In this document: piece after piece, positions 26,353-43,011 of the stretch | Layout: every line of letters starts with the position of its first letter | How positions within the stretch are numbered: position 1 is the stretch's first letter | NCBI GenBank assembly: GCA_039795775.1 | Contig: JBDKLC010000003.1 | Location: forward strand, 797 to 64,796 | Source of the DNA: Candidatus Parcubacteria bacterium | GTDB taxonomy: Bacteria > Patescibacteriota > Minisyncoccia > Phycocordibacterales > CAIZLB01 | Direction of reading: 5' to 3' | Length of the DNA: 64,000 nucleotides | Made by a program: the position numbers and the translations under genes | The notes under the pieces: model-generated | Told to the model about the DNA's origin: nothing | The model's database searches: none | What the model saw: the letters and a program-made list of their open reading frames with translations, nothing else

Positions 26353-26357
26353 TAAGG

Positions 26358-27200: not shown

Positions 27201-27317
27201 TGTGAGTTAAGTACCCACGCTCTAAGGCCTTGTAAGGGTATTCTAGCACTTCTGGATGGGTCTTGTTGAGGCAAGTGAGTCGCTATCCCATTTTCACAAA
27301 ATGAGACACCTGAAGCC

Positions 27318-28325: not shown

Positions 28326-28697
28326 ATTACATATTTTACCAATTATTTTTTCTTAAAACACTACAAATCGGACAAAAATTCATAGTACTCAAAATCCAGT
28401 TGCGCCGGGGAAACATTTAGTTATCCACATAAAAATCGATTATATACTCTGTTGCGAAAAACTGAGGTTGCTACAATGTATTCATAACTAGCGGTTTGAG
28501 GTGATTACGAAAATCCTCATTCTAAACAGTGACAGTTTCCTTGTTGCACACGGCAGACAAGAACATAATCACTGACCCATTCGCTCGAGGGTTCTAAATT
28601 TTAAAACGAATAAGCGATCTCTACTCTGGGGATTGCGAACATAAATTATTTGAATCCGTGAACAGAGAAATTATTAAAGTAATTTCTAATTTTTGCT

Positions 28698-30074
28698 ATG
28701 CAAACAAATACAGGTGGCTCAACGCGTTCACATGAACGTGACCTTAAAATTGAGTATGTCCCTTTATCAACCCTATCTTCTCCCGACTATAACCCTCGGA
28801 CATGGAGCAAGGAAACGACTGAGCAACTCAAAGAAAGTATCAACAGATACGGAGTCGTTGATCCTCTGCTTGTTAACTCCGCAGAGAATCGTAAAGGCAT
28901 TGTTATCGGAGGAAACTTCAGACTTTCAGTTCTCAAGGAATTGAATTTTGAAACCGTGCCAGTTGTCTACATAAATATTCCTGATCTCAAGAAAGAAAAG
29001 GAATTGTGTATTCGACTCAACAAGAACCAAGGCGAATGGGATCTTGAACTTCTTTCAAAGTTTGATGAGGCAATACTGAAAGATATAGGTTTCAATTCAG
29101 AATCGCTTGATGATATTTTCGAGGAAGATGACAAAGAAGAACAATTCGACTTACAGAAAGAACTCGACAAATTAAATATCGAAAGTATCAGTGTTCAGAA
29201 GGGTGATGTCTACGACCTCGACGGTTCTCGCCTCATGTGCGGAGACTCAACTATAGAATCCGACATGATGAAGCTATGCGGAGAAGAAAAGGTAGATATG
29301 GTAATGACTGATCCTCCGTATATACTCGACTATCTTCATGGAAAGACTAAACACGGTGAAGCCACTACTGGTTTCGGTGCAAAGAAGAATCGAAGGTACT
29401 TGGAGACTGAAAGTTTGCCTGACAATTTCACTGAGTTATGGATGAACAACGTGAAGAAAGTACAGGCAGAAAACTTCTCAATCATCTGTTATGAGAACTG
29501 GAAGAACATTCGTACCATTTGGGGCGAAATGGAAAAGCATTGGAAAGTTCGCAATATGATCGTCTGGCATCTTCCAAACAGAAACCAAGGGTATGCAGGA
29601 AAGCACAAGTTCTTCTCAAAACATGACATTGCAATGGTTGGCACAAGTGAAAATCATGAAGGAGTCGATCCTGAAGCGGAGGCTGATCCATTGCTTGAGA
29701 ACGAATACCAGACTGCGCTATTCGCTATCAACAAGAGTCCTCATTGGGAATCATATGGTAAAGGTAAGAAATATTGCCCGACCGACTTCATTGACTACAA
29801 TGCAGCCGACGAGAAGTCTTCTGGCCAAGGAATCATATTCGGAACTAAGCCAACAGAAATATTAGTTCCGTACATAAAGGTATTAACTAGACGAGATCAA
29901 ACAGTACTTGAACCATTCTGCGGAAGCGGGAGTACATTGATTGCAAGTACAAAATTGAAAAGACGATGCTTCATCATGGAAAAATCACCAGTCTATGCGG
30001 AGGTCGCGCTTAATCGCTGGGAAAAGTTTACCGGCAAGAAAAGAGTAAAAATCAATGTACAGCCGACATGTTAA
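28698..30074 (+). CDS. ParB-like nuclease domain fused to a beta-class DNA (N6-adenine/N4-cytosine) methyltransferase; orphan MTase typical of phages and plasmids
   Basis: N-terminal ParB/Srx-like region, motif IV TDPPY preceding motif I EPFCGSGST (beta-class order). Confidence 0.7.
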   Translation: MQTNTGGSTRSHERDLKIEYVPLSTLSSPDYNPRTWSKETTEQLKESINRYGVVDPLLVNSAENRKGIVIGGNFRLSVLKELNFETVPVVYINIPDLKKEKELCIRLNKNQGEWDLELLSKFDEAILKDIGFNSESLDDIFEEDDKEEQFDLQKELDKLNIESISVQKGDVYDLDGSRLMCGDSTIESDMMKLCGEEKVDMVMTDPPYILDYLHGKTKHGEATTGFGAKKNRRYLETESLPDNFTELWMNNVKKVQAENFSIICYENWKNIRTIWGEMEKHWKVRNMIVWHLPNRNQGYAGKHKFFSKHDIAMVGTSENHEGVDPEAEADPLLENEYQTALFAINKSPHWESYGKGKKYCPTDFIDYNAADEKSSGQGIIFGTKPTEILVPYIKVLTRRDQTVLEPFCGSGSTLIASTKLKRRCFIMEKSPVYAEVALNRWEKFTGKKRVKINVQPTC

Positions 30075-30663
30075 AAAAGAAATTGTTGCAGCACTTACCG
30101 AGACTCCCTTCATCTATAGAGTATGTAAAAAATTCGGAGTAGCCAGATCAACATTTTACAAATGGCTCAAGGATGACAAGAATTTTTCGAGTGATGTAGT
30201 GATAGCACTTCGAGAAGGAAAAAGAAGTATGAATGAGCTTGCACTATCAAGTCTTGTTAAGCGAGTGAGCGATGGTCACTTTCCAGCAATACGATATTTC
30301 CTTCAGCATAACCATGGTGACTATAGACCACCTGAAAAGGTAAACTCAGTAGCTATGTGGAATGCTCGTATGAGCGCTCTGAGGAAAAAGAAAGAAGAAG
30401 CTCCGTATGAGACATGGAATCCTGAATCTAAATTCCACGATAGTCTTAGTACTAAGCAAGAGATTATGCTCGAGTTACTATTGGAATACAATAGTGTTGA
30501 AGAAGTCAGTATCGATATACGTTCTGAATATTTCGCCAAAGTACTTGAAGATGAGTTCAAAAGTATTACTGAGGCTGAACAATATCTAAAACAAGCGATA
30601 CAACTTGAGAAGGAGTCAGCGAAGCCTTCAGAATCGGCTGATGCAAACCAAACTTCTGGCTAG
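30055..30663 (+). CDS. HTH-domain protein (phage small-terminase-like / transposase-like HTH)
   Basis: GVARSTFYKWL helix-turn-helix. Overlaps the upstream MTase by 20 nt, suggesting coupled translation. Confidence 0.35.
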   Translation: MYSRHVKKEIVAALTETPFIYRVCKKFGVARSTFYKWLKDDKNFSSDVVIALREGKRSMNELALSSLVKRVSDGHFPAIRYFLQHNHGDYRPPEKVNSVAMWNARMSALRKKKEEAPYETWNPESKFHDSLSTKQEIMLELLLEYNSVEEVSIDIRSEYFAKVLEDEFKSITEAEQYLKQAIQLEKESAKPSESADANQTSG

Positions 30664-30940
30664 CGTCTTTTACTTCTGCATCTATTGAATTAGAAAGAAA
30701 AACAAATGGAATATTCTTCGTGCGGTTATCCACCTTGATGGCCTTGAGTAGATCAAGGCCATTTGGCGTTGGTCGAATGACGTCAGAGATTATGAGGTCA
30801 GGTTTTATGATGTCGATTTGAGAAACAAAATCTTTCTCAAGTACATCAAGTGACACAACCTCGAATCCTGATTCCTTGAATACTTTTCCGTAGAGATCGA
30901 GTAGAAACTTGTCGTCATCTATATGAAGTATTTTCTTCAT
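30566..30940 (-). CDS. stand-alone response-regulator receiver (CheY-like) domain protein
   Basis: DDD acidic pocket (HIDDDKF), conserved T/S and K positions. Confidence 0.5.
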   Translation of the reverse strand: MKKILHIDDDKFLLDLYGKVFKESGFEVVSLDVLEKDFVSQIDIIKPDLIISDVIRPTPNGLDLLKAIKVDNRTKNIPFVFLSNSIDAEVKDASQKFGLHQPILKASLTPSQVVSLVLDIVQPQ

Positions 30941-30941
30941 A

Positions 30942-31322
30942 TTATTTAAACAAGATTAATAAGAGAATAATCGCGATGATTGTAAGTAATCCCGCAACTG
31001 CTCCAAGCTGTGCGAATGCAAAATATATTGCACCAACTCCAATGAGGAAGAGGAGTAGTCCAACGATCTTACTTCTTCGAGCTTCGAGGAGGGCTTTTAG
31101 TGTTCCTAAAATGAGCGCGCCTACAATTACAATTCCTGCGAGTAGTATTATTGCTCCAATTCCAGAAAACATTCCTGAAAGGATATTTTCTGGAATATTA
31201 ATAAATCCATAGTAACCAATTGTGCCAATAAGTATTCCGATTATTGGTATGGTTATTAAAAGTACAATAGAACCATAAGCTCCACTTAGAGCTTTGGTCA
31301 GCACTGTTTTTATTTTATTCAT
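30942..31322 (-). CDS. hypothetical integral membrane protein (start taken at MNKIK)
   Basis: Four TM helices, adjacent to the receiver gene. Confidence 0.35.
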   Translation of the reverse strand: MNKIKTVLTKALSGAYGSIVLLITIPIIGILIGTIGYYGFINIPENILSGMFSGIGAIILLAGIVIVGALILGTLKALLEARRSKIVGLLLFLIGVGAIYFAFAQLGAVAGLLTIIAIILLLILFK

Positions 31323-31615
31323 GTTTTTGCGGTTTTTTAACCCGACATAGGATTTTTTTCCATACAAAAATCCCTTAGCCAGGACGATGGTATTACCCAC
31401 CCACACCAGTTTCCCGATGTGACCGCAAAAGTGACCCTAGACTAAGGGGTTTTTATACTTTTGCGGTGTTTATGACCATATCCTAGAAAACCAAGGGTCT
31501 TTTAGGGGTTAGGTCGCTTATTAAGTTGTAAATGAATTGTAGCAGATTTTCCGCTACTTTTGTACCTTAGCTTAGATATGGAGGCTTGCGAAGGGGTGGT
31601 TACCAACAACTCAAT

Positions 31616-32344
31616 TTAGCAGACTGTTGATCCAATTGTCTCAAGCTTCTCCTTAACTTTCTCCCATTTAGGAAACTTCTTGTCGAGAAAATCATAGAAC
31701 CGTTTATCATGGTTCTTATACTTCATGTGACAGAGTTCGTGTACGATAACATAATCAATACAGTCCTTTGAGGTATGAATAAGCCTAGGATTGAGGAATA
31801 TCTTATCCTGATTTAAGAAACTGCCCCAACGTTTCTTCATTTCTCTAACGGAAAGTTTCGGTGTGTTCTTGAAGTCAAAGAGTGAAAGCATTTCAGTGAA
31901 TCTGTCTTGGAGAATTAGGTTTGTCTTTTCTGCAAACCAGCTATCAACGAGTTTTTTGTTGTACTTGCTGTCTGTCACGGACTTAGTTGTAGATACAATC
32001 AACTGACCTCTAGTGAGAGAAACAGAATCTTCTTTACCTTTACGAACAATTAGTTTGTACTGTCTTCCGAGGTACAAATATCCCTCTCCCGAGATGTATT
32101 CTTTCTCATAAGTCTTTCGTTGATATTTTTTGAAGAATGAAAGTTGCTTCTCTAGCCAGAACCATTTCTTCTGGAGAAAGGTTTCGATTCTTTCGCCCTC
32201 TGCCTTGAATGGACACTTAACAATAATACGAAGATCTGGGGTGACAGTGAGGCTCAGGGTTTTACGATCTTGTTTTATAAGTTGGTATTCATATATGAAT
32301 GTTCCAAAAATGAATTCCTTCATATAATTATAAGAATAGATCAA
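31616..32344 (-). CDS. DUF45/YgjP-like (M48-related) metal-dependent hydrolase, a family frequently linked to hsdR
   Basis: HELCH zinc-binding HExxH motif, overlaps the hsdR stop. Confidence 0.6.
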   Translation of the reverse strand: MIYSYNYMKEFIFGTFIYEYQLIKQDRKTLSLTVTPDLRIIVKCPFKAEGERIETFLQKKWFWLEKQLSFFKKYQRKTYEKEYISGEGYLYLGRQYKLIVRKGKEDSVSLTRGQLIVSTTKSVTDSKYNKKLVDSWFAEKTNLILQDRFTEMLSLFDFKNTPKLSVREMKKRWGSFLNQDKIFLNPRLIHTSKDCIDYVIVHELCHMKYKNHDKRFYDFLDKKFPKWEKVKEKLETIGSTVC

Positions 32345-35300
32345 AGTTATTTTCTGCTAATTGCATTGCAGTATCAATAACGACCTTGATGTGATCATTA
32401 TCAATATTGATGCCTTTCTCGCCCTTAAACACATCGTAGAGGTAATCATCAATACTATTTCGCATCTTACGCTTCACATCCATGTTCTTGTACCAGTCTA
32501 CAATTGCCTCATTCTTAATGATCGTGAAGATATCAAGAATGGTGGCAATATAAACATCTTCACTGAGATTCAAATTTGCAAGCTCAGATCGCAAGTTACG
32601 ATAGAACACGTCTGATCCTTTCTGCGATTCAATTTTTTCTGGAAGACTCTCGTCTTTCTTGTTTACCACATCATCACTAATAAGCTTCATTTGTTTCAGA
32701 GCTTCAACATCAGCAAGTTTTCCTTGTCTCATTTTCTCAAGAATGTTAGAAATCTTCTTAGAGAATTTCTCATAGAATTCAGGGTCAGTATCCATTTTTT
32801 CTGTGATAGTCCTTTCAGTCTGTGCAGCGATTGCCTCAGCCTTTGATTTGTCAGAACCGAGTTCTGCTACAGCTTCTTCAAACTGCTTTCGATCAGTAAT
32901 GTTTACTTGCTTTGTGAGCAACTCAACACCACGAGCATCCACATACTTATCAAGGATATTGATAAGTGATTGTTTGTATTCAAGAAGATCAACACGGTCG
33001 GCATACTTCAAGCTCGCAGACTTACGAAGTTCCATAAACTTTTTAAGTTCACGTTTATAGAGATCAAGGTGCTTGAATTCATGAACGAAGTCCTGCAACA
33101 CAAAGCATTCGTTCAGGTTCTTGATGAACTCATTAAGTGTCTTGTAGAAAGTCTCACGCTTTGGCTGATCAGAAAGGAATTGGAGGTACACCTCATCATC
33201 GTTCGATCCTTTGATCTCATTAAACAAATCGTGGACAGTTCCATAGCTTTGTTCGAGATCTTGTATCTTTTCTGACACATCAATAAGAGTTCCTTTAATA
33301 TCGTTCTCATCATAGTTACCGAAAAGCTTCATAGCTGTATCAATGTTTTTAGCGTTCTCTGAGTAGTCCATGATATAGCCCGCAGTCTTTGGTTTTTCCT
33401 TTTTGTTTTCGTAAAGACGGTTTACACGAGCGATAGCCTGAAGTAGGTTATGATCTCTCAAGTCTTTAGCGAGATAGAGTACTGTGTTACGAGGTGCATC
33501 AAAGCCAGTGAGTAGCTTGTCTACCACGATGATCATCTCGATACCGTCATCGTTGTGCTTAAAGCTATCAACAACATCTTTTTCATATTTCTCAACACTA
33601 CTGTGATTTTTTCGAACACCCTCTAGGTATCCGACCACTTCTTTTTTGTGAAGATTTTCTTCATCACCGTCTTCATGCTCGTCGGAAATAATTACAGCAG
33701 TACGAACGTTTCCACGAGTCTCAAAGAACTTCTGGAAAAGAATTGCTGAATATTTAGATGGAGCAACAATTTGCGCCTTAAGCCCTGTGTATTGGAAGTT
33801 GTCGATAAAGTGCTTCTCTATATCATAAGCAATCTCAACAATACGCTGAGGATTGTCTTTAATTATCTTACTTCCAACGTATCGCTGTAGTTCCTTCTTC
33901 TGCTTATCATTGAGTCCTTCAGTGATTCGTTCAACATGGCGGTCAATCTGTTCCGCATTCTGAATAAGATCAACATAACGACCTTCGTAGATAAGGGGAA
34001 GAATAATCTTATCAGCTAAAGCATCATCAATCGTATACTTGTCGATATAGTCACCGAACTTCTTCCAACTCTCTCGGTCTTTCTTCATGAGAGGGGTACC
34101 AGTAAATCCGATGTAGCATGCATTTGGGATGATTCGATTCATCTCAAAGTTAGCCATACCGTTTTGACTTCGGTGCGCCTCGTCGATAAGGACAAAGATG
34201 TTTTTATCATCATCAATAAATCCTGTACTCTTTTTTGCAGCTGATTCAAACTTCTGAACAAGTGTAGTGATAACAGACAAATCTTTCTCCTTAATAAGAT
34301 CAATCAGGTGCTGACCACTTGTAGCCTGAATGACTTCCTTTTTGAGGTTACAGTTTTTGAATGTATCTTTAATTTGCTTGTCCAAATCCTTACGATCAGT
34401 AACGATGATCACACGAGGGTTGAGAATATGAGGATCTTCAATAAGGGTCTTCACAAACATCACCATGGTAAGCGATTTACCAGATCCTTGAGTGTGCCAA
34501 ACAAGCCCACCTTTTCGTCGAGTAATACCGTGATCAGTTACTTCTTCCTCTTCTACGCGCTTGAGCATCTTATGTATAGCAAAATACTGTTGGTATCGTG
34601 AAAGCTTCTTTACTCCTGCATCAAAGAGAATGTAATTCTTTGTTAGGTCTAAAAGTCTTTTTGGTTCGAATAAGAACATAACCCCACAATCCTGTTCGGT
34701 AGGAAGTCTGTCTGTTCTTTGTTTATGACCGTCAGTATATCCGTTCAAATCTTCAAGTACTTGAGTATATATTTCAGTATCAATTTTTTTATGAATAAGA
34801 CCTAATAGCTTTTCGCTAAGTATTTCCTGATCTGATCCTTTTTCTTTCCATACTGCATAGAACTTGTTAGGTGTACCAGTAGTTCCATACTGCAATTCTT
34901 TTCCATTAGTACCAACAAGAAGTTGAGTGTAAGTAAAAAGTTTAGGACAGAATTCAGGGCCCTGATTACGATTCATTTGATTGATAGCTTCCTTTACATC
35001 TACACTAGACTTTTTGTTCTCAATCACCGCAAAAGGGATACCGTTTACGAAGACTACGATATCGGGACGGACATTTTGTTTACCACTTGCTACAAATTCT
35101 ACAGAGACATGGAATGAGTTATTTTCTGGGTTCTCGAAGTCTATGAACTTAAAGTTCTTTGATACTTTCTTGCCCCCGTGATTTACTTTGATTGTCTTAC
35201 CTCCACTCGTTGGCATGATAGTGTTGTAGATCTTTTGTGCAGTATCTATAAGCCCTTCATACTGAATATGCTCAAGTTCATCGATGGCGTCTCGCACATC

Positions 35301-35522
35301 TTTCTCGCTGAATTTATATTCAACACCATCAACTTCGTATCCGTTGATTTCCATGAGCTTCTCCGCAGCAATGTCAGCGAGGATGAAGTTTGAAGTGTCA
35401 CCACGTTGTCGCAGTGCTTCAGCAACAGAAACATACTTGTAACCCATGTTCAACAGAAGCTCTACAAATGGGAGCTGTGACTGTCTGGCTTCATCGAAAT
35501 TTACGTTTATGAGTGATGACAT
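32328..35522 (-). CDS. hsdR: Type I restriction enzyme R subunit
   Basis: SF2 helicase motifs TQGSGKSLT (Walker A), DEAH (FVLIDEAHRSQ), 1064 aa. Confidence 0.92.
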   Translation of the reverse strand: MSSLINVNFDEARQSQLPFVELLLNMGYKYVSVAEALRQRGDTSNFILADIAAEKLMEINGYEVDGVEYKFSEKDVRDAIDELEHIQYEGLIDTAQKIYNTIMPTSGGKTIKVNHGGKKVSKNFKFIDFENPENNSFHVSVEFVASGKQNVRPDIVVFVNGIPFAVIENKKSSVDVKEAINQMNRNQGPEFCPKLFTYTQLLVGTNGKELQYGTTGTPNKFYAVWKEKGSDQEILSEKLLGLIHKKIDTEIYTQVLEDLNGYTDGHKQRTDRLPTEQDCGVMFLFEPKRLLDLTKNYILFDAGVKKLSRYQQYFAIHKMLKRVEEEEVTDHGITRRKGGLVWHTQGSGKSLTMVMFVKTLIEDPHILNPRVIIVTDRKDLDKQIKDTFKNCNLKKEVIQATSGQHLIDLIKEKDLSVITTLVQKFESAAKKSTGFIDDDKNIFVLIDEAHRSQNGMANFEMNRIIPNACYIGFTGTPLMKKDRESWKKFGDYIDKYTIDDALADKIILPLIYEGRYVDLIQNAEQIDRHVERITEGLNDKQKKELQRYVGSKIIKDNPQRIVEIAYDIEKHFIDNFQYTGLKAQIVAPSKYSAILFQKFFETRGNVRTAVIISDEHEDGDEENLHKKEVVGYLEGVRKNHSSVEKYEKDVVDSFKHNDDGIEMIIVVDKLLTGFDAPRNTVLYLAKDLRDHNLLQAIARVNRLYENKKEKPKTAGYIMDYSENAKNIDTAMKLFGNYDENDIKGTLIDVSEKIQDLEQSYGTVHDLFNEIKGSNDDEVYLQFLSDQPKRETFYKTLNEFIKNLNECFVLQDFVHEFKHLDLYKRELKKFMELRKSASLKYADRVDLLEYKQSLINILDKYVDARGVELLTKQVNITDRKQFEEAVAELGSDKSKAEAIAAQTERTITEKMDTDPEFYEKFSKKISNILEKMRQGKLADVEALKQMKLISDDVVNKKDESLPEKIESQKGSDVFYRNLRSELANLNLSEDVYIATILDIFTIIKNEAIVDWYKNMDVKRKMRNSIDDYLYDVFKGEKGINIDNDHIKVVIDTAMQLAENNFDLFL

Positions 35523-35526
35523 ATGT

Positions 35527-36774
35527 TTATTTGGTTAGTTTGGTTGATAATGTTTCTGGTGTGCGTATTTTGCCTGTAATGAGATTGTTGAGAAGGTAGC
35601 GTTTCTGTTCTTTGAAGATGGAAAGTTTCTTTTCAAGTGAATCAATCTCGTTATCTGTTGCTGTGAGAATGTTTGCAATAGCCGTTTGTTCCTTAATTTT
35701 CGGTATATGTATAACAACTTCGGAGACCGTCTCTTTTTTTAAGTTCTGCACTCCTGAACCTGCAGAGATAGAGCGAAATACGCTTTGAATTCTCGATGAG
35801 GAAAGGAGATAGTAAAGAAAGTCCTTATTGACTGATGATGAGATATCCATTAGCGCCAACCAACCGTCGTGTATACAAGCATTAATTTTCATTATGTAAG
35901 GACGACCAAAACTCATTGAATTTGAAAGAATAAAATCTCCTTCTTTTACTAATGTAGTTTTATTAAGTCCCTCCTTTTTAATCTTTTCAGTTGTCTTATA
36001 AATAAATCTGTCTCCAATTGGCACATCTCCAATTCTTAACCAATTCAGTCCGTCTTTATTTTCTGTAATATAATCCTGAATTGGTCGTGGTGATCCACCT
36101 CTTTTTATCTCGCAAATCTCACCAAGTACTTTGAATTCCCATTTATCTTCGAAACCTTTCAATCTCTTATTACCAGTGAGTAAATCTTGCATTAGGCCTT
36201 TTTTTACATTCTTCTTTACTTTTATTTTTTCAGTAATTTTTTCAATCAATTTGTCCCAAGTTTCAAGGACTGAAACAATACGATTTTGTTCAGATAGTGG
36301 AGGAAAGTTTAATTTAATCTTTTCGAAATCACCTTTTGAAACTTCAAGAAATGTACTGCCAGACCCCAATTTCATTAGAGTAGGCTTGATTGATTTAATG
36401 AAATAAAACAAATAATCCACCGTTGTATCTTTTTTTGGAATCAGATTTTTAAAACCTTGATTTGTAGAAATTGGATACGTAGAGATAGAACATTCTCCAA
36501 CCGTCGCACGAGTACAAACAATGAGACTCCCTTTTGGAAGCAATCTTGCGGAGCTATTTTTAAGACCAAGCTCTGTAATCTTCTTCTCTGTCTTTAATGT
36601 TATATATTTACCTGTTTTTGTGATTTCAGTTGGGGTTATCCAGTTTATTTCACCGTCCCAAAAATCTTTATTATTTGTATCAGGTGTGCCTCCAGACGAT
36701 ATATGTGAAACATCTGCAAGTGTAACTTGTGTCCAGCCAGATGGGATATCTTTTTGTAATTGATTATTTTTCAT
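35527..36774 (-). CDS. hsdS: Type I restriction-modification specificity subunit (two target-recognition domains)
   Basis: Two TRDs separated by a conserved helical spacer (LSEQNRIV...), with a C-terminal conserved region. Confidence 0.85.
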   Translation of the reverse strand: MKNNQLQKDIPSGWTQVTLADVSHISSGGTPDTNNKDFWDGEINWITPTEITKTGKYITLKTEKKITELGLKNSSARLLPKGSLIVCTRATVGECSISTYPISTNQGFKNLIPKKDTTVDYLFYFIKSIKPTLMKLGSGSTFLEVSKGDFEKIKLNFPPLSEQNRIVSVLETWDKLIEKITEKIKVKKNVKKGLMQDLLTGNKRLKGFEDKWEFKVLGEICEIKRGGSPRPIQDYITENKDGLNWLRIGDVPIGDRFIYKTTEKIKKEGLNKTTLVKEGDFILSNSMSFGRPYIMKINACIHDGWLALMDISSSVNKDFLYYLLSSSRIQSVFRSISAGSGVQNLKKETVSEVVIHIPKIKEQTAIANILTATDNEIDSLEKKLSIFKEQKRYLLNNLITGKIRTPETLSTKLTK

Positions 36775-36775
36775 A

Positions 36776-38023
36776 TTATTTGATTCTTGGTTTTTTCTTA
36801 AATAGATTTAATGTGTACTCAATTTTATTTAACAATTCATCAAAAGTAATAATCATTACCTCATTATTTGAAGACCTGAATAGTTCAAAACTATCTTTTT
36901 GTTTCGGGCTTAGATTTTTTAAATCACCAGCAATAACCACACATTGTGAATTTGAAATTTGTAAGCCAGATCCACCAAGTTTGGAATAGAAGTTTTTTAG
37001 CAATTCATGCTTCTGATCCTGAACTTGAATAAGTGAGCCAGACAAGTCCTTGCTTATAGGAAAAATACCTTTTCGATATTCTGTCTTCATTATTATGGGT
37101 GTTTTATGAGTTTTTATTTCTATAAAAGCAACGTTGTTGGTTAGATTGTTTTTATATAGAAAATCAACAATTTTATCACTATTGGTTTCTGTAATATTAT
37201 TGCCCCCGACATTAAATTTGTCTTTTGTAAGTGATACTGGAAAATAGAATACATTGCTAAAAATCCAGTTATTTTCATTGAAAAACTTTTGCCAATCCTC
37301 TTCTTTTGTATTTACTTTTAATAATCTTTTATATCTAGAAAGAATGTCCTCAACATATAAAGTGTCGATCTGCCCCTTTGAGGAAAGTAGTATTTCTTTA
37401 CTTAGAATCTTTTTATCAATAAAACCCTTAATGACAATTGAATCAGCATCAGATAGCTTCATCTGATCTATTTCGTATTTATTGAAGAAATTAGACAAGT
37501 CGTTTTCAGTATATTGAATTTTTTGAGCTACACTAAACTTAGATGGCAAAACTGAGTTAAAGATATTTTGATGCGTCTGTCTCAATTCCTTACTCTGCTT
37601 CTCTTTATTTTTTTGTGTACTATATTCAATTTTCCTGAAATCAGTTAAAAGGATTTGAAGTTTACCATTCTTGATTTCTGTTTTACCTTTTTCTAAAAAG
37701 ACAACTTCTTCAATATTTGGATATTTATCTTGAAAAAAATAAAACAAATCCTGAACTCCTTTAGGTTTTGTGAATCCGAAACCGCTCGAAACATTCACAG
37801 ATATACCTGAAGAAGGTCTTTTGCCTCCTGTGGTTGTAATCTTTTTTATAGAGCTATACTTATGTTTAATGGTCCCAAATGAGTTGTAAAATGGGTATCT
37901 TGTTATATTACCATTCGTAAATCTCTCTAAAGCCAAGAAGCCAGTGTCCTTATCCTTTAAATAAAGATTGAATGATTCTTTTAACTTAGTTTTATTTGCC
38001 GACACAAGAGAAACATCTTTCAT
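36776..38023 (-). CDS. PD-(D/E)xK nuclease-fold protein, Shedu (SduA/DUF4263)-like, embedded between hsdM and hsdS
   Basis: C-terminal block EEDWQKFF..NNWIF...DKIVDFLY-x10-VAFIEIK...QVQDQ...CVVIAGDL...FELFR...MIITFDELL matches my recollection of the DUF4263 profile. D-x15-ExK spacing is as in characterised Shedu. Confidence 0.5.
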   Translation of the reverse strand: MKDVSLVSANKTKLKESFNLYLKDKDTGFLALERFTNGNITRYPFYNSFGTIKHKYSSIKKITTTGGKRPSSGISVNVSSGFGFTKPKGVQDLFYFFQDKYPNIEEVVFLEKGKTEIKNGKLQILLTDFRKIEYSTQKNKEKQSKELRQTHQNIFNSVLPSKFSVAQKIQYTENDLSNFFNKYEIDQMKLSDADSIVIKGFIDKKILSKEILLSSKGQIDTLYVEDILSRYKRLLKVNTKEEDWQKFFNENNWIFSNVFYFPVSLTKDKFNVGGNNITETNSDKIVDFLYKNNLTNNVAFIEIKTHKTPIIMKTEYRKGIFPISKDLSGSLIQVQDQKHELLKNFYSKLGGSGLQISNSQCVVIAGDLKNLSPKQKDSFELFRSSNNEVMIITFDELLNKIEYTLNLFKKKPRIK

Positions 38024-38027
38024 ATAT

Positions 38028-39539
38028 TTATTTGATTCCTAGTTCCTTTAGGTATACGACCATTTGTTTCTCAAGCTTCTCAAGCTGTGGCTCAAGCTCA
38101 GCAAGCTCTTTCAGGTTTGCTTTGATATCTACAGGAGCTTCTTCGGTAAACGTATCCACATAGCGAGTGATATTAAGGTTGAAATCATTCTCCTCAATTT
38201 CTTTAAGACTTACTTTACGAGCAAACTTCGCTACATCTTTGCGAGCCTTGTAGGTAGAGTAAATCTTTTCGATGTTTTCATCGGTGAGAATATTTTGAGC
38301 TTTGTTAGATTTGAATTCCTTTGATGCTTCGATAAAGAACACATCTTTTTTACTTTCATTTTCTCCACCTTTTTCTCGTGAGCGATCGATAACAAGAATT
38401 GCGACAGGGATACCCGTTGTTTGGAATAGTCCTGCAGGAAGTCCGATTACAGCCTCAATGATATTTTCCCTGAGAAGTTGTTCACGAATTTTACCTTCTG
38501 CACCACCTCGAAAGAGAACGCCGTGAGGAACAATAACAGCAATACGTCCTGTCTTTGGCTTTGCTGTCTCAATCATGTGAGTAATAAAGGCAAAGTCACC
38601 CTTGTCCTTTGGTGGAGTGCCACGCCAGAATCGTTTGTATTTGTCGGCATCTGCATGTTCAGCGCCCCATTTCTTGAGAGAGAACGGTGGGTTACTTACG
38701 ATTGTATCGAATTTCATTAAGTGATCATTTTCTACAAGGAGTGGATTATTTAAAGTATCGCCCCATTCAAGTCGCGCTGAATCTTTTCCATGGAGAAACA
38801 TGTTCATTCGAGCGAGTTGATATGTTGAACCTGTTGATTCTTGGCCATAGAGAGCGTAGTTCTTTGAACCTTGTTTTTCTACTTCTTCACCTGCAAGTAA
38901 AAGGAGACCTCCTGATCCAGAACATGGGTCACAAATACGAGCACCTGCTTTTGGTTCTGCAAGTTTTGCTACGAGATGAGCAACATTCCTTACTGTAAAA
39001 AATTCTCCAGCTTTTTTTCCTGCATCTGCTCCAAACTTCTCAATAAGATACATATATGAGTTACCAATGACATCATCATTCACGCCAGTGAGGTCAATTT
39101 TTGCAAAGTCCTGTACAAGATTACGAAGCATCTTGTTTCGCTCTGCAAGTTTTCCAAGATTTGATTCTGAGTTGAAGTCTACAGAAAATACACCATCAAG
39201 TTTTTCCTTGTTGTGATCTTCAATACGATGAAGTGCTTTGTTTATTTCTTCTCCAAGATTATCTTGCTCGATAATTGAATAGATATAGTCAAACGATGAC
39301 TTCGGAGGGAGATAGAAGCGGTCAAGCTTCATTTTCTCTTCAATACGTTTCTCATCACCTGCGAATCTTTTTTTGTATTCGTCATGTGTGTTTTTTGATT
39401 TATCGCTAAGATATTTCAAGAAAAGCATTGGGAGTACATAGTTCATGTAATCCGCCGCATTGAGTTGGCTTCGAGAGGAGTTTGCTGAGTCCCATAGGAT
39501 TTTATTTAGGTCTTCTTGTGTGTATTTTTTGTTGGTCAT
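38028..39539 (-). CDS. hsdM: Type I restriction-modification N6-adenine DNA methyltransferase subunit
   Basis: Motif I CDPCSGSGG and motif IV NPPF. Confidence 0.92.
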   Translation of the reverse strand: MTNKKYTQEDLNKILWDSANSSRSQLNAADYMNYVLPMLFLKYLSDKSKNTHDEYKKRFAGDEKRIEEKMKLDRFYLPPKSSFDYIYSIIEQDNLGEEINKALHRIEDHNKEKLDGVFSVDFNSESNLGKLAERNKMLRNLVQDFAKIDLTGVNDDVIGNSYMYLIEKFGADAGKKAGEFFTVRNVAHLVAKLAEPKAGARICDPCSGSGGLLLLAGEEVEKQGSKNYALYGQESTGSTYQLARMNMFLHGKDSARLEWGDTLNNPLLVENDHLMKFDTIVSNPPFSLKKWGAEHADADKYKRFWRGTPPKDKGDFAFITHMIETAKPKTGRIAVIVPHGVLFRGGAEGKIREQLLRENIIEAVIGLPAGLFQTTGIPVAILVIDRSREKGGENESKKDVFFIEASKEFKSNKAQNILTDENIEKIYSTYKARKDVAKFARKVSLKEIEENDFNLNITRYVDTFTEEAPVDIKANLKELAELEPQLEKLEKQMVVYLKELGIK

Positions 39540-39540
39540 G

Positions 39541-40185
39541 TTAGTTCTTAGTTAAGTTAGTAAAGCTTGCGTTGATAATGGTTTTTTGAATTTCTTGTTT
39601 TCTTTTAAATATCCGTTCTTGTTCAATAATATTTTCGTGGAGCGCGATGATCGACTTCTGCGTATGGATAGGAGGTATTGGTATTGGGAAGTCCGTGAGG
39701 TTTTTCACAAGGATGCTTTGTATATATGAAGCACCTGTGACTATTTGAGCGAGAGCTTTTTGCCCATCCTGTGAATTGAGATATAGGGATACATACTTCG
39801 GGAGAACGGTAACATCTTTGATTCGGATGACATGAACCGATGATGAGGGCATCACGTTTGTGTTGTCTGAAGCAAAAACAGCAGAACGGAATGACCCAGC
39901 ACCTGAGCCTCTGGAAACGAGTAAAATGTCGTTATGTTCAAGAAAGTAAGGGTTTCTAATGGATTTGTCTGAAACGATAACTAGGTCATTAGTATTCAAA
40001 ATATCTTGATTTATAGCTATATTCTTGGCTTGTAGCACAAAAATAGCGCCTTTTGGGTCGTTTTCGATGGATCCACGGAATGTGTACCCAGAGGCCATGT
40101 CTGCTATTTCGCTCAATTTCTTGTGCATGTAAGGACTATACTGCACTTTACAATAAAATGCAAATTTAGGTCTTTTAGTTACCAA
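39541..40185 (-). CDS. hsdS: half-size Type I specificity subunit (single TRD plus conserved helical region), first gene of the R-M operon
   Basis: Single TRD-like region followed by ...IIALHENIIEQERIFKRKQEIQ conserved HsdS helix. 214 aa, about half the size of a normal HsdS. Confidence 0.6.
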   Translation of the reverse strand: MVTKRPKFAFYCKVQYSPYMHKKLSEIADMASGYTFRGSIENDPKGAIFVLQAKNIAINQDILNTNDLVIVSDKSIRNPYFLEHNDILLVSRGSGAGSFRSAVFASDNTNVMPSSSVHVIRIKDVTVLPKYVSLYLNSQDGQKALAQIVTGASYIQSILVKNLTDFPIPIPPIHTQKSIIALHENIIEQERIFKRKQEIQKTIINASFTNLTKN

Positions 40186-40232
40186 CTGGGTCGTCCTAGG
40201 CTCTTAGAGGAGTATGTGTCATTGATTGATGT

Positions 40233-41558
40233 ATGAAGACAATAGATCAAATGCCAGGGGCTATGACTGCCCGAGGAATCATAAGCGAGGTAAAGGTGAA
40301 ATACTGCCTTTATGCGAGAAAATCAACAGAATCAGAGGAACGACAAGTCCTTTCAATAGATAGTCAGATCAAAGAAATGCTCCAGTTAGCAGACCGTGAA
40401 GGGCTTGAGGTGGTCACCATGAAGCGTGAGAGTCATTCAGCAAAGGAAACGGGGCAACGACCAGTCTTCAACGAGATCATCGAGGAACTGCGTGATGGCA
40501 AGTTCAATGGAATTTTGACATGGGCACCTGACCGTATTTCAAGAAACGCAGGAGACCTTGGAAGGATAGTGGATCTAATGGATGCGGGTAAGCTTCAAGA
40601 AATCAGGACTTTCGGGCAGAAGTTCGGGAACAACCCAAACGAGAAATTCTTGCTGATGATTCTCGGATCACAAGCAAAGCTCGAGAATGATAATAGAGGT
40701 ATCAACGTGAAGCGAGGATTGCGAACAAGGGTGGAGATGGGGCTGTGGCCAGGAGTGGCACCTCTTGGGTATCTCAACCAAAGAAATATCGACAAGAAGT
40801 GTCAACTTGTAGTTGATGAGCTACGTGCACCGCTGGTAAAAAAAATATTTGAAAGGGTCGCATATGAGAAATTAAGTGGAAGAAAGATATACAATTGGCT
40901 TCGATTCGAAGCCAATTTCTATACACGAGGAAACAAACCACTTACACTCGGGGGTGTATACAGGATATTGGAAAATCCCTTCTATTATGGAATGTTCGAA
41001 TATCCAAAAGATAGTGGTAATTGGTATCAAGGAAAACATGAATCAATAATCACAAAGGAATTATTCGATGAAGCACAGTCACAGCTGAAGCGAGATAATA
41101 TACAAAGAGAAAATAAAGAATTCGCATTTACCAAACTCTTCACATGTGGATACTGTGCGAGTGGAATTTCCGCAGAAGAAAAATGGAAACAATTAAAAGA
41201 TGGTACGCATGCGAAATACATTTACTACTCATGTGCAAGATCGAGGGATAGGAATTGTAAGAATCAATATATCCGAGAGGAAGATCTGATCGTCGAGATG
41301 CTGAAGATACTCGATAAAGTAAATATTAATGAGCTTGGCATGAGACAGAAATTAGAGGACGAAATCGCTCGATTCAATATCTTCCAAAGATCAGTACTTG
41401 GGAGCACAGACAAGATTGGTAATAGAAAAGATACCGACATACGAAATTATGCAAAGTACATACTAAAAGAGGGTGCGGTGACAGAGAAGCGAGAGTTACT
41501 TGCGAATTTGCGGAGCAAGATTATATATAAGGATAAGGTTCTAACTTTGATAGATTAG
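40233..41558 (+). CDS. large serine recombinase (resolvase/integrase family)
   Basis: N-terminal resolvase catalytic domain (YARKSTE..Q.. with Ser nucleophile), recombinase domain, C-terminal zinc ribbon CGYC...C..C. Confidence 0.8.
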   Translation: MKTIDQMPGAMTARGIISEVKVKYCLYARKSTESEERQVLSIDSQIKEMLQLADREGLEVVTMKRESHSAKETGQRPVFNEIIEELRDGKFNGILTWAPDRISRNAGDLGRIVDLMDAGKLQEIRTFGQKFGNNPNEKFLLMILGSQAKLENDNRGINVKRGLRTRVEMGLWPGVAPLGYLNQRNIDKKCQLVVDELRAPLVKKIFERVAYEKLSGRKIYNWLRFEANFYTRGNKPLTLGGVYRILENPFYYGMFEYPKDSGNWYQGKHESIITKELFDEAQSQLKRDNIQRENKEFAFTKLFTCGYCASGISAEEKWKQLKDGTHAKYIYYSCARSRDRNCKNQYIREEDLIVEMLKILDKVNINELGMRQKLEDEIARFNIFQRSVLGSTDKIGNRKDTDIRNYAKYILKEGAVTEKRELLANLRSKIIYKDKVLTLID

Positions 41559-42793
41559 CGTTTATTTCTATCCTTATATTTTTTCTTTCGTAGGCCTAAG
41601 TGATACTTATGAAATTCATCATCATCTCGTTCCTTTTCAATTTCAATATGTTGCATACAACGACCTCGGCGATATGGACCAAATAATTCTGCAAACTCTC
41701 CTTGAAACCAAGGGAGGGTTTGATGCTCGGTACCTTTATTTGTTTCTGATTCAAAATCTGGATCTCCAGGCAATCTTCCATATTCATCCATTGCTCCAGA
41801 ACCACCTGGGCCACCACCCCACATTATTGTCCCGCCCCAATGAATAGCTCTCGGATCAGGCATCAATAAATAACCATGACCATAGGTGTTCCAATTTGAT
41901 TTTGATACAAATTTCTCTGGATAGAGCCATTCCTTTTTTGCTGCGGCAATATAGCGATTCGCTCTGCTCTTAATAATGAAATTAATTTCGCGTACTTCCT
42001 GTTCACTTAAATATCGACGCACTTGAATATCTGTAAATTTAAATATTGCACCTCGAAAAGGATTCGGGTTGGGTCTTACGTTAGTTGCAGGCTGATATGG
42101 ATTTCTAACCCAAGAAAGATTTGTAAGTATTAAGATCTTATCTAAAGATAGAGGAAAGATTGTGTGAGTTCCTTGTAACCAGATGGCAGGATCATTTGAT
42201 TCTCTACACTGTTGTGATCGAGGACCGCATTCTCGATTGTAAACAGTGACAGGGTGATCTGAAATAATAAATTTAGTATCTGATTTTGATGCATCCGCTA
42301 TTAACCAAACGCATTCAGTCCACAAAGCACAGTGTATTCTTCCTAGTTTAAGCATACTTCGTAAAATATCGTCTTTATTTGTACTTTCTATTTCTTTACT
42401 CAGCCATGTCAAACCTTTTGGTGTTCGAAGTTTTTGAGTACTCATGTAGTTCATGATGTCTTCAAATGAATTACGCCAATCTGTTAGTGGGTAATCAAAT
42501 TTTTCAAAATACTCAACAGCAGGCTTTCCTTTAGTATCAATTTGCCCAAAGAAATGTTTTTCAATATCTTTTGGTTGTATCCCTGTAATCTTCGTTGTAT
42601 ACAAATCTTCTTCAACAAAACACTTTTTACTACCTTGTCTCCATAGGGATTGCTTATCGTGCTTAATACCTCTCGGGTCTATAAAATAACCTGGTTTCAT
42701 GTCTAGGTAGAAAAGTTCCGACTCCTCGGGGAGCATAAACTTTTTTTGGTACCATTGAGGTACATAATGATGGTTTTTATAGTCGTCACTCAT
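41555..42793 (-). CDS. DUF4238-like protein (defense-island associated family of unknown function)
   Basis: N-terminal HHYVPQWYQKKF matches the DUF4238 signature H-Y-[IV]-P-Q-F-Y-L. 412 aa. Confidence 0.5.
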   Translation of the reverse strand: MSDDYKNHHYVPQWYQKKFMLPEESELFYLDMKPGYFIDPRGIKHDKQSLWRQGSKKCFVEEDLYTTKITGIQPKDIEKHFFGQIDTKGKPAVEYFEKFDYPLTDWRNSFEDIMNYMSTQKLRTPKGLTWLSKEIESTNKDDILRSMLKLGRIHCALWTECVWLIADASKSDTKFIISDHPVTVYNRECGPRSQQCRESNDPAIWLQGTHTIFPLSLDKILILTNLSWVRNPYQPATNVRPNPNPFRGAIFKFTDIQVRRYLSEQEVREINFIIKSRANRYIAAAKKEWLYPEKFVSKSNWNTYGHGYLLMPDPRAIHWGGTIMWGGGPGGSGAMDEYGRLPGDPDFESETNKGTEHQTLPWFQGEFAELFGPYRRGRCMQHIEIEKERDDDEFHKYHLGLRKKKYKDRNKR

Positions 42794-42921
42794 GGTTTGA
42801 TTTTAGCAGTTTTACACAAACAAAAACACACGATTTAATTCGTGTGTTTTTGAATCATTCTATGTATGTAGGTCGCATCACTTACTCATGCAAGTGAGTT
42901 GACGCCGATACTAAAATGTCT

Positions 42922-43011
42922 TGGCGGAGGAGGTGAGATTCGAACTCACGGGACCCTTGCGAGCCCTCCTGTTTTCAAGACAGGTGCAATCGACCACTCT
43001 GCCACTCCTCC
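42922..43011 (-). tRNA. tRNA-Ser (anticodon TGA), long variable arm
   Basis: Hand-folded: acceptor GGAGGAG/CTCCTCC + G + CCA, anticodon loop CTTGAAA, long extra arm, T-loop GTTCGAATC. Confidence 0.85.

What the first reader, a model, noticed from the sequence alone, without database searches (positions are those of the whole stretch)
28400..43011. tRNA-Ser-anchored mobile/defense island with a large serine recombinase; proposed left edge at ~28.5 kb
The tRNA-Ser 3' end (42922) points into a block whose gene content is entirely accessory: DUF4238-like protein, large serine recombinase, Type I R-M operon, DUF45 hydrolase, receiver-domain protein, HTH protein, and a ParB-nuclease::MTase fusion. 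A degenerate copy of the tRNA 3' arm occurs at 28497-28510 (GAGGTGATTACGAA, versus GAGGTGAGATTCGAA in the tRNA), in the same orientation. This could be a decayed att remnant, making a ~14.5 kb integrative element. Housekeeping genes resume immediately on the other side (ruvX at 43144).
Basis: partly seen in the sequence, partly recalled or inferred. Interest (0 to 1): 0.7.

Follow-up and report, generated by a model that had tools for sequence, protein, structure and literature searches.

The report
Serine-recombinase defence island at tRNA-Ser

Summary
The tRNA-Ser(TGA) gene (42922-43011, minus strand) does anchor an integrated element with a large serine recombinase (LSR) and defence cargo. 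The 14-mer at 28498-28511 is a chance match: its alignment score equals the window-wide mean, and 12 related loci lack it.

About 30 related loci place the ends at 27193 and 42923 (15.7 kb).
- **Right end:** a conserved arm, CCGATA-N13, abuts the tRNA's terminal GCGG. It is present in every close-LSR locus with enough flank and absent from LSR-free relatives.
- **Left end:** a conserved ~90-nt block starts with GCGG and mimics the tRNA 3' end (17/26 in register). A displaced terminator lies just outside it.
- **Tandem joints:** in three contigs the right arm joins the left block directly, in the same 13-nt register.

The 335-aa zinc-ribbon gene is therefore inside the element.

Cargo is a Type I R-M operon with a nested Shedu gene, DUF4238 in a variable slot between the LSR and the tRNA, a ParB-MTase, a TerS-like HTH and a LOOT RNA.

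The LSR is 81-95% identical in more than 120 protein clusters named from several Patescibacteria groups, while the host RuvX has no relative above 64%. More distant LSR relatives abut tRNA-Asp, Glu, Gln, Asn and Trp. Recombination itself is inferred.

The parts
27147..27188 (-). Host flank just outside the element: hairpin with 19-nt arms followed by a T-run on the minus strand. Interpreted as the original tRNA-Ser terminator, displaced by the insertion.
   Evidence: Inverted repeat I9, 95% complementary. Equivalent terminators directly follow the left block in L010, L005 and L006, and follow tRNA-Ser itself in the LSR-free loci L085 and L008.
27193..27282 (.). Left-end block (proposed P' arm, attL side). 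It starts with the core GCGG (27193-27196), then a mimic of the tRNA-Ser T-arm and acceptor end, then an extended -10-like box and the motif GGCAAGTGAGTC (27270-27281).
   Evidence: Homology among related loci begins exactly at GCGGG. An nhmmer profile hits the window, L009, L010, L012, L015 (twice), L016, L005, L006, L079, L086 and L094. It matches the tRNA 3' end at 17/26 positions in register; only 3 of 127,950 window positions reach that. No conserved RNA fold.
27318..28325 (-). 335-aa protein with an N-terminal zinc ribbon, function unknown. Left-end cargo of the element.
   Evidence: Pfam finds only a sub-threshold zinc ribbon. It is 77-94% identical in L008-L016 and L019, although host genes there are far more diverged. 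It lies between the block and the ParB-MTase gene in 7 loci.
28698..30074 (+). ParB_N nuclease-like domain fused to an N6/N4 DNA methyltransferase; element backbone.
   Evidence: Pfam; PHROG 498 at 5.7e-75. Found with the LSR in L009, L082, L083 and L086.
30055..30663 (+). HTH protein resembling a phage terminase small subunit; backbone, possible regulator or directionality factor (inferred).
   Evidence: Pfam HTH_Tnp_1_2; PHROG 24579 TerS at 4.3e-8. A homolog sits next to the ParB-MTase in L082, L083 and L086.
30566..30940 (-). Stand-alone response-regulator receiver domain.
   Evidence: Pfam Response_reg at 6.2e-11.
30942..31406 (-). Small membrane protein with no family match.
   Evidence: ORF; no Pfam or PHROG hit.
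31386..31515 (-). LOOT RNA motif (RF03000).
   Evidence: Rfam, 71.4 bits against a gathering score of 46.4. The region is conserved in L009 and L019.
31616..32344 (-). YgjP-like (DUF45) metallopeptidase, last gene of the R-M operon.
   Evidence: Pfam at 2.6e-52.
32328..35522 (-). Type I restriction subunit HsdR.
   Evidence: Pfam; PADLOC REase_I at 2.9e-146.
35527..36774 (-). Type I specificity subunit HsdS with two target-recognition domains.
   Evidence: Pfam Methylase_S at 1.5e-50, two stretches.
36776..38023 (-). Shedu SduA defence nuclease nested inside the R-M operon; GC only 0.30-0.32.
   Evidence: Pfam SduA_C at 1.9e-25; PADLOC SduA at 2.6e-61; GC profile. The related operon in L081 has three other small ORFs at this position.
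38028..39539 (-). Type I methylase subunit HsdM.
   Evidence: Pfam N6_Mtase at 1.5e-99 plus HsdM_N.
39541..40185 (-). Half-size HsdS with one target-recognition domain.
   Evidence: Pfam; PADLOC Specificity_I.
40233..41558 (+). Large serine recombinase, 441 aa; proposed integrase of the element.
   Evidence: Pfam Resolvase, Recombinase and Zn_ribbon_recom; PHROG 95 integrase at 4.5e-61; SPbeta SprA structure 9dxh at 1.8e-11; more than 8000 homologs, the top 120 clusters 81-95% identical.
41555..42793 (-). DUF4238 protein occupying the variable cargo slot between the LSR stop codon and the terminator and right arm.
   Evidence: Pfam at 4.4e-19. Other loci fill the same slot with Shedu (L080, L094), PDC-S53 (L081), MmeI R-M plus a helicase (L088), or nothing (L084).
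42821..42852 (-). Element-borne intrinsic terminator that now ends the tRNA-Ser transcript.
   Evidence: Terminator scan: 13-pair stem plus T-run. Conserved with compensatory changes in L080, L081 and L084.
42871..42923 (.). Right-end arm (proposed P arm, attR side): ...GCAAGTGAGTTGACGCCGATACTAAAATGTCTTG, ending directly against the GCGG of the tRNA.
   Evidence: nhmmer E-values 1e-11 to 1e-15 in L080, L081, L082 and L089, weaker in L084, L086 and L088; absent from LSR-free L005, L006, L008 and L085. CCGAT[AG]-N13-GCGG keeps an exact register at 10 tRNA-Ser junctions and 3 tandem junctions.
42922..43011 (-). tRNA-Ser(TGA), the integration target. The gene body is intact with an encoded CCA; the core GCGG is at 42924-42927 on the plus strand.
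   Evidence: ARAGORN; Rfam tRNA, 60 bits; alignment with 12 other tRNA-Ser genes.

Best explanation
Window 27193-42923 is one 15.7-kb integrative element of a family spread through Patescibacteria.

Proposed mechanism (inferred): the element's large serine recombinase recombined an element site (attP = right arm + GCGG + left block) with the extreme 3' end of the host tRNA-Ser gene. That target, attB, is the T-arm and acceptor end plus the following terminator. The exchange occurred in or next to the 4-nt core GCGG, which covers the discriminator and the last acceptor bases.

The tRNA body stays host-derived and intact. The element supplies a new trailer and terminator, and the original terminator is pushed 15.7 kb away. 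The left block mimics the tRNA 3' end because the same enzyme must bind both half-sites.

The backbone is the block, the ParB-MTase, the TerS-like HTH, the LSR and the right arm. The rest is swappable cargo, mostly anti-phage defence: a Type I R-M operon with a nested Shedu gene, and DUF4238 in a variable slot between the LSR and the right arm.

Shown here: gene content, the conserved ends, their exact register, their co-occurrence with the LSR, tandem joints, and the synteny of the flanks. Inferred: that the LSR catalyses the reaction, the exact crossover bases, and whether this copy can still move.
For: 1. **LSR identity.** The protein is intact and canonical.
2. **tRNA linkage.** Downstream of close LSR homologs there is always a tRNA-Ser on the opposite strand with its 3' end facing the LSR: window, L079, L080, L081, L082, L084, L086, L088, L089, L096 and L101. 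The anticodons are TGA, GCT and ACT, and all share the T-arm and acceptor sequence.
3. **Right arm.** It co-occurs with the LSR and is absent from four LSR-free relatives, including L008 (PilM 57% identical) and the syntenic L085.
4. **Left block.** It marks where inter-genome homology stops. It occurs at the distal end of three elements that have the block, the LSR and the tRNA on one contig: the window, L086 (11.9 kb) and L079 (17.8 kb).
5. **Direct joints.** The right arm is joined straight to the left block, with no tRNA between, in L094, L086 and L015. The CCGATA-N13-GCGG register matches that of the tRNA junctions.
6. **tRNA mimicry.** The block's end matches the tRNA 3' end at 17/26 positions in register, the best non-self match in the window, tied with one match inside a coding ORF at 1470.
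7. **Flank synteny.** L085 keeps both flanks (tRNA-Arg(GCG) and the TM-protein gene on the left, tRNA-Ser and ruvX on the right) but has none of the element.
8. **Conservation contrast.** The LSR is 81-95% identical in more than 120 clusters named from Nomura-, Colwell- and Magasanikbacteria and Parcubacteria, while the best non-self RuvX hit is 64%.
9. **Stable junction.** The same left junction appears in a second sample (L004, 99.98% identical).
Against: - No empty attB from a near-identical strain and no circular attP read were found, so mobility of this copy is unproven.
- L008 places the 335-aa gene 143 bp from tRNA-Ser with no ParB-to-LSR segment.
- The syntenic relative L085 is not a clean empty site: it has 4.9 kb of other genes between the flanks.
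- The P and P' arms show little dyad symmetry (by eye).
- The host-side (B) arm varies between hosts, which is unusual for a strictly site-specific LSR.
- No recombination directionality factor was identified.
- IMG/VR contig ends may have been trimmed at tRNAs by the pipeline that made them, which could bias some examples (my assumption).
Confidence: 0.78

Rival explanations
1. The mobile unit is only ~28.4-42.9 kb (ParB-MTase to DUF4238). The 335-aa gene and the block are resident DNA, or an older mini-element, next to tRNA-Ser, and the LSR element inserted between them.
For: L008 has tRNA-Ser, 143 bp, then the 335-aa gene (92% nt identity) in the same relative orientation as the window, without the 14.5 kb between. 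LSR-less mini-islands bounded by a block exist (L005, L006, L015), so a two-step history is possible.
Against: - There is no block or right-arm sequence in 28326-28697, whereas real tandem joints show arm|block.
- The 335-aa gene and the ParB-MTase gene are neighbours in 7 loci.
- In L079 and L086 the block bounds LSR elements that have no 335-aa gene.
- The 335-aa gene is far more conserved than the host genes around it (92% against 68% nt in L008), so it is not resident DNA.
- The L008 contig ends inside the gene, so a block beyond it cannot be excluded.
Confidence: 0.12
2. Defective prophage or phage satellite. The ParB-MTase and TerS-like module and the LSR are remains of a temperate phage, or of a satellite that hijacks a helper phage's packaging, rather than an autonomous integrative island.
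For: The HTH protein matches four terminase-small-subunit PHROGs (best 4.3e-8), and the ParB-MTase is typical of phage genomes. Related contigs are listed in IMG/VR.
Against: No capsid, portal, large terminase, tail or lysis gene was found in the window, or among the proteins tested from L079, L086 and L089. Nearly all the remaining content is defence or R-M cargo. This rival concerns the transfer vehicle and is compatible with the integration mechanism proposed above.
Confidence: 0.25
3. The LSR is a DNA invertase that phase-varies the adjacent Type I R-M system by shuffling the two hsdS genes. It is not an integrase.
For: The LSR is divergent from, and only 48 bp away from, a half-size hsdS. 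Recombinase-driven hsdS shufflons are known in other bacteria (my knowledge).
Against: - The two hsdS genes are in the same orientation and share no inverted or direct repeat longer than chance.
- The same LSR sits next to unrelated cargo elsewhere: AlwI and Dam, an Eco57I-like enzyme, a CBASS CD-NTase, methyltransferases.
- It has the full large-serine-recombinase architecture and conserved ends at a tRNA.
Confidence: 0.02
4. A fixed, no longer mobile relic. The island arrived by LSR integration long ago and is now inherited vertically.
For: The nearest relative, L084, keeps only the last ~75 codons of the LSR next to the arm and the tRNA, so decay does happen. The LSRs of the window, L079 and L080 are 91-92% identical in protein but only 77-79% in DNA, which indicates old divergence under constraint rather than very recent spread.
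Against: The window's LSR is full-length compared with its family. Both ends match the family consensus. The cargo differs between otherwise similar elements (L019 and L081 against the window), which implies ongoing turnover.
Confidence: 0.3

Closest known systems
Serine integrases of temperate phages, e.g. SPbeta SprA (PDB 9dxh), A118/LI, TP901-1, Bxb1
   Same: Same three-domain architecture: resolvase, recombinase domain, zinc ribbon with coiled coil. SprA is the best solved match (E 1.8e-11). Short att sites without a long duplicated segment, and only a few shared core bases.
   Different: Those enzymes target protein-coding or intergenic sites and belong to complete phages (my knowledge). 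Here the target is the 3' end of a tRNA gene, the element has no virion genes, and the P' arm imitates the tRNA end.
SCC elements (SCCmec) with CcrAB/CcrC serine recombinases in staphylococci
   Same: From my knowledge: insertion at the 3' end of a conserved housekeeping gene without inactivating it; highly variable cargo; tandem or composite arrays; recombinase-less pseudo-elements bounded by the same end sequences. All of these have counterparts here (tandem joints in L015, L086 and L094; LSR-less units in L005, L006 and L015).
   Different: The SCC target is rlmH (orfX), a protein gene. Ccr enzymes are a different LSR clade and often come as a pair. SCC cargo is resistance genes rather than phage defence. 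The host phylum is different.
Tyrosine-integrase genomic islands and prophages in tRNA genes (Islander-type; e.g. phage mv4 at tRNA-Ser)
   Same: The 3' end of a tRNA gene is used as a conserved landing pad. tRNA function is preserved, the integrase gene lies near the tRNA-proximal end, and islands occur in tandem.
   Different: The recombinase family differs: no tyrosine integrase is present. There is no 15-60-bp identity block, only GCGG plus a 65% mimic.
The 14 S-Int elements in t(m)RNA genes predicted by TIGER (Mageeney et al. 2020, PMC7192596)
   Same: Computationally predicted serine-integrase elements at tRNA or tmRNA genes.
   Different: That paper reports 14 of 297 cases, says such use 'has not been reported previously' and that it needs experimental proof. 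It gives no family-level description. Whether any of the 14 belongs to this clade was not checked.

Membership tests
Large serine recombinase (serine integrase) | N-terminal resolvase catalytic domain with the conserved serine motif | tested here: met
   PF00239 at 3.6e-19, residues 26-170. The motif YARKSTESEERQ is read from the translation.
Large serine recombinase (serine integrase) | Recombinase domain plus zinc-ribbon/coiled-coil C-terminal region | tested here: met
   PF07508 at 8e-15 and PF13408 at 2.3e-6. The protein aligns to SprA over residues 17-381.
Large serine recombinase (serine integrase) | Short att sites; hybrid attL and attR share only a small core, with no long target duplication | tested here: met
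   Only GCGG is common to both junctions. CCGATA-N13-GCGG keeps a fixed register in 13 junctions. No long direct repeat exists.
Large serine recombinase (serine integrase) | Demonstrated attP x attB recombination, and excision with a directionality factor | not testable with these tools
   No reads or biochemistry are available, and no directionality factor was identified.
Tyrosine-integrase tRNA island (Islander type) | Phage_integrase-family tyrosine recombinase in the island | tested here: not met
   All 13 ORFs of at least 120 aa between 27318 and 42793 were scanned against Pfam, and none is a tyrosine recombinase.
Tyrosine-integrase tRNA island (Islander type) | Direct repeat of the tRNA 3' segment (roughly 15 bp or more) at the distal end | tested here: not met
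No copy within 3 mismatches. The true distal end is only a 17/26 mimic.
Intact prophage | Capsid, portal, large terminase, tail and lysis genes | tested here: not met
   A PHROG scan of 10 element proteins finds only integrase, ParB/MTase and TerS-like hits.
Phase-variable Type I R-M shufflon | Inverted repeats within oppositely oriented hsdS copies next to a recombinase | tested here: not met
   Both hsdS genes are on the minus strand, and no repeats link them.
Type I restriction-modification system | hsdR, hsdM and hsdS intact in one operon | tested here: met
Shedu defence system | SduA protein with the DUF4263 nuclease domain | tested here: met
   PF14082 at 1.9e-25; PADLOC SduA at 2.6e-61. 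Activity was not tested.
Defence island | Two or more distinct defence systems clustered on accessory DNA | tested here: met
   Type I R-M, Shedu and an orphan-type MTase lie within 12 kb. The DUF4238 slot holds recognised defence genes in sister elements.

The most novel reading that the evidence does not exclude
This element represents a large, previously undescribed clade of large serine recombinases, common in Patescibacteria, that has specialised in the 3' ends of tRNA genes. Close members use tRNA-Ser isoacceptors. More distant members use tRNA-Asp, Glu, Gln, Asn and Trp. Their attP carries an arm that imitates the tRNA T-arm and acceptor end. The elements pile up in tandem, include recombinase-less mini-elements that could be mobilised in trans, and act as exchangeable carriers of anti-phage systems. 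Because the target is universal and the enzyme extremely conserved, the pair could also serve as an integration tool for CPR bacteria, for which genetic tools are scarce.
Probability: 0.5. Interest if true: 0.75.

Novelty: new variant of a known kind. Interest (0 to 1): 0.62.

Why it matters
- **Target choice.** Serine integrases are generally regarded as not using tRNA genes. The one large survey I read found 14 candidates among 297 and asked for proof (PMC7192596). Here a whole, abundant LSR family (more than 8000 database hits) shows the association repeatedly, with defined ends, an exact junction register and tandem joints. This makes the question directly testable with synthetic att sites.
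- **Defence biology.** The result shows how defence systems (Type I R-M, Shedu, PDC-S53, MmeI, CBASS) are carried and swapped in reduced-genome Patescibacteria. It also nominates DUF4238 as a defence candidate by its position.
- **Practical use.** A conserved LSR with a tRNA-Ser landing pad could become a genetic tool for CPR bacteria.

Tried and rejected
chance level.
- **Any long direct repeat of the tRNA 3' end:** none in the window. An 11-mer GGTGAGATTCG at 27020 is within chance for a 17-kb scan, although it lies only 170 nt outside the left end.
- **hsdS shufflon or invertase role for the LSR:** no repeats and same-strand hsdS genes.
- **Left block as a structured RNA:** RNAalifold predicts no pairs in 10 sequences.
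- **Composition as evidence:** the island's GC is like the genome's except for the Shedu gene.
- **True empty site:** the closest RuvX relative is only 64% identical. L084 carries an LSR remnant and L085 has other genes in the gap.
- **Free circular attP in IMG/VR:** the pattern found one contig, which turned out to be a tandem array rather than a free circle.
- **Function of the 335-aa protein:** no Pfam, PHROG or PADLOC hit, even at E up to 10 for its C-terminal part.
- **Phage structural genes in sister elements:** none among the 10 proteins tested from L079, L086 and L089.
- **Literature on CPR serine-recombinase tRNA elements:** none in the held library.
- **GC-rich 14-17 kb as rRNA:** rejected.

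Full report
**What is in the window.** ARAGORN places tRNA-Ser(TGA) at 42922-43011 on the minus strand, so its 3' end faces lower coordinates. Pfam, PHROG and PADLOC scans give this map, from left to right:
- 335-aa zinc-ribbon protein, 27318-28325 (-)
- ParB_N::N6_N4 methyltransferase, 28698-30074 (+)
- HTH protein resembling a terminase small subunit, 30055-30663 (+)
- receiver domain, 30566-30940 (-)
- membrane protein, 30942-31406 (-)
- LOOT RNA, 31386-31515 (-) (Rfam, 71 bits)
- YgjP, 31616-32344 (-)
- HsdR, 32328-35522 (-)
- HsdS, 35527-36774 (-)
- Shedu SduA, 36776-38023 (-); GC 0.30-0.32; PADLOC 2.6e-61
- HsdM, 38028-39539 (-)
- half-size HsdS, 39541-40185 (-)
- large serine recombinase (LSR), 40233-41558 (+)
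- DUF4238, 41555-42793 (-)
- the tRNA, followed by ruvX, a tRNA-binding protein and pilM/N/O

The window comes from JGI contig Ga0451679_0000006, 85 kb. The nearest named genomes are Candidatus Taylorbacteria and other Patescibacteria.

GAGGTGATTACGAA is at 28498-28511. It does not match the tRNA arm within three mismatches. Its gapped score against the tRNA 3' 45-mer is 16, which equals the mean of 168 same-size windows of this sequence; 97 of those windows reach it. The corresponding spacers of 12 related loci contain nothing better. No long copy of the tRNA end exists anywhere in the window.

**The LSR and tRNA-Ser go together.** Relatives found through PilM keep the order tRNA-Ser(-), ruvX, tRNA_bind, pilM, but differ completely on the tRNA's 3' side. 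In L007 a 39%-identical LSR ORF runs into the tRNA gene itself.

The window's LSR has more than 8000 homologs. The top 120 clusters are 81-95% identical and are named from Nomura-, Colwell- and Magasanikbacteria and Parcubacteria. The host RuvX has no non-self relative above 64%.

In every close-LSR locus with enough downstream flank, a tRNA-Ser lies 0.1-7 kb beyond the LSR stop codon, on the opposite strand, with its 3' end facing the LSR. These loci are the window, L079, L080, L081, L082, L084, L086, L088, L089, L096 and L101. The anticodons are TGA, GCT and ACT, and all share the T-arm and acceptor end.

**Right end.** LSR-bearing loci share a ~52-nt sequence that ends directly against the tRNA (window 42871-42923), preceded by a terminator (42852-42821). 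The profile scores E 1e-11 to 1e-15 in L080, L081, L082 and L089, although host PilM in L080 is only 37% identical. It is absent from the LSR-free loci L005, L006, L008 and L085. The sub-motif CCGAT[AG]-N13-GCGG keeps an exact register at 10 tRNA-Ser junctions.

**Left end.** The 335-aa gene's homologs (L008-L020) show that DNA homology always stops at about 27190, at GCGGGCC. A profile of the ~90-nt block also hits L086, L079, L005, L006 and L094, and hits L015 twice. In the PilM- and LSR-anchored loci (L005, L006, L079, L086) the block lies on the 3' side of tRNA-Ser in the window's orientation.

Three elements have the block, the LSR, the right arm and the tRNA on a single contig: the window (15.7 kb), L086 (11.9 kb) and L079 (17.8 kb).

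The first 26 nt of the block match the tRNA 3' end at 17 positions in register. Only three of 127,950 window positions reach that: the tRNA itself, this block, and a site inside a coding ORF at 1470. The block has no conserved RNA fold, which suits a protein-binding DNA site.

Immediately outside the block lie intrinsic terminators in the window (27147-27188), L010, L005 and L006. The same kind of terminator directly follows tRNA-Ser in the LSR-free L085 and L008.

**Joints without a tRNA.** A scan for right arm followed by block found IMGVR_UViG_3300000970_000154. That contig carries two LSR elements in tandem, and the arm of the first is fused to the block of the second. The same arm|block joint occurs at the left of the L086 element and between the two units of L015, all with the 13-nt register. 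These joints show that the arm and the block are the two termini of the recombining unit and that GCGG is the shared core.

**Flank synteny.** L085 (core proteins 55-80% identical) keeps tRNA-Lys, DoxX, SpoU, Fpg, RuvA, S20, tRNA-Arg(GCG) and the TM-protein gene on one side. On the other it keeps tRNA-Ser, ruvX, pilM and the genes beyond. It has no LSR, block or arm, and 4.9 kb of unrelated genes fill the gap. The 335-aa gene therefore lies in the variable segment.

In L084, the closest relative (PilM 78%), only the last ~75 codons of the LSR remain, followed directly by the terminator, the arm and the tRNA. DUF4238 is therefore an insertion into a slot. Other loci fill that slot with Shedu (L080, L094), PDC-S53 (L081), MmeI R-M plus a helicase (L088) or metabolic genes (L079).

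**Interpretation.** The simplest reading is LSR-mediated integration at the discriminator/CCA end of tRNA-Ser. The tRNA is preserved, and a P' arm mimics the tRNA end. The edge and the att argument do not.

L008 remains only partly explained. Its 335-aa gene lies 143 bp from tRNA-Ser and is 92% identical in DNA to the window's, while neighbouring host genes are about 68% identical. This fits a mini-element or a deletion derivative better than an empty site. However, the contig ends inside the gene.

**Wider pattern and literature.** LSR relatives at 44-62% identity in IMG/VR contigs abut the 3' ends of tRNA-Asp, Glu, Gln, Asn and Trp in the same geometry. Mageeney et al. 2020 state that S-Ints were not known to target tRNA genes, and they found 14 unproven cases among 297. 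I found no description of this family in the held library.

The closest analogy in behaviour is SCCmec/Ccr (my knowledge). The closest solved structure is SPbeta SprA.

**Limits.** No excision or empty-site reads were available, and no biochemistry. The crossover bases, the directionality factor and the transfer vehicle are unknown. The ends of IMG/VR contigs may be pipeline-trimmed at tRNAs (my assumption).

Noticed in passing
window 14100-16800: A 2.7-kb stretch has GC 0.51-0.57 in a ~0.39 genome. It is not rRNA (no Rfam match). It holds two ORFs (14139-15233 and 15592-16779) with no Pfam family, between a PilB-like ATPase and TsaE. It looks like foreign DNA of unknown nature.
   Followed up: partly
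window 31386-31515 (-): A LOOT RNA (RF03000, 71 bits) lies inside the element, just upstream of a small membrane-protein gene. The region is conserved in the sister elements L009 and L019. Its role is unknown.
   Followed up: partly
window 36776-38023: A Shedu gene (GC 0.30) is nested between hsdM and hsdS of the Type I operon. The related operon in L081 has three small unrelated ORFs at the same position, so this is a second cargo slot inside the R-M operon.
   Followed up: partly
L079 18430-18517; L086 12443-12532; L088 9514-9602; L096 15914-16001: These tRNA-Ser genes have anticodon ACT (loop TTACTAA). In L086, L088 and L096 they sit beside a tRNA-Ser(GCT). An A34 serine tRNA is unusual in bacteria.
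   Followed up: no
L016 3307-3356: The contig ends with an Illumina adapter sequence joined exactly at the outer end of the left block (...CCCGCC/A). This is either a coincidence of assembly or a real molecular end at the recombination core.
   Followed up: no
window 27240-27269 (-): The conserved middle of the left block matches an extended -10 promoter (TGcTAGAAT) pointing outward across the junction. The TAnAAT box is kept in most of the aligned block copies.
   Followed up: no
window 27270-27281 and 42889-42900; L086 584-595 and 12410-12421: A 10-12-nt motif, GCAAGTGAGT, is repeated in direct orientation near both ends of the element, about 78 nt from the left junction and about 25 nt from the right. 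It could be a site for an accessory protein.
   Followed up: partly
window 27020-27037: GGTGAGATTCGGTCACAC resembles the tRNA-Ser T-arm (11-nt exact match). It lies 170 nt outside the left end in tRNA orientation. It may be a relic of an older event, but chance is not excluded.
   Followed up: partly
L089 13156-14508 versus window 26356-27188: In L089 the tRNA-Ser and its element are inverted relative to the TM-protein/tRNA-Arg(GCG)/S20/RuvA flank when compared with the window. In L015 the block end faces ruvX. The whole tRNA-plus-element segment seems to flip between lineages.
   Followed up: no
L005 6543-8965; L006 6571-8970; L015 1631-3153: These are mini-islands of 1.4-2.3 kb, each with a left block at one end but no recombinase. 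Those in L005 and L006 end at tRNA-Ser, and the L015 unit ends in a right arm. L005 carries a Shedu gene. They are candidates for mobilisation in trans.
   Followed up: partly
L104, L111, L115, L116, L120, L121, L124: LSR relatives at 44-62% identity lie just upstream of the 3' ends of tRNA-Asp, Glu, Trp, Gln and Asn genes on the opposite strand. In three of these loci the gap is only 125-152 nt.
   Followed up: partly
L007 2001-3531: A 503-codon LSR ORF (39% identical to the window's) reads 69 nt into the tRNA-Ser gene on the opposite strand.
   Followed up: no
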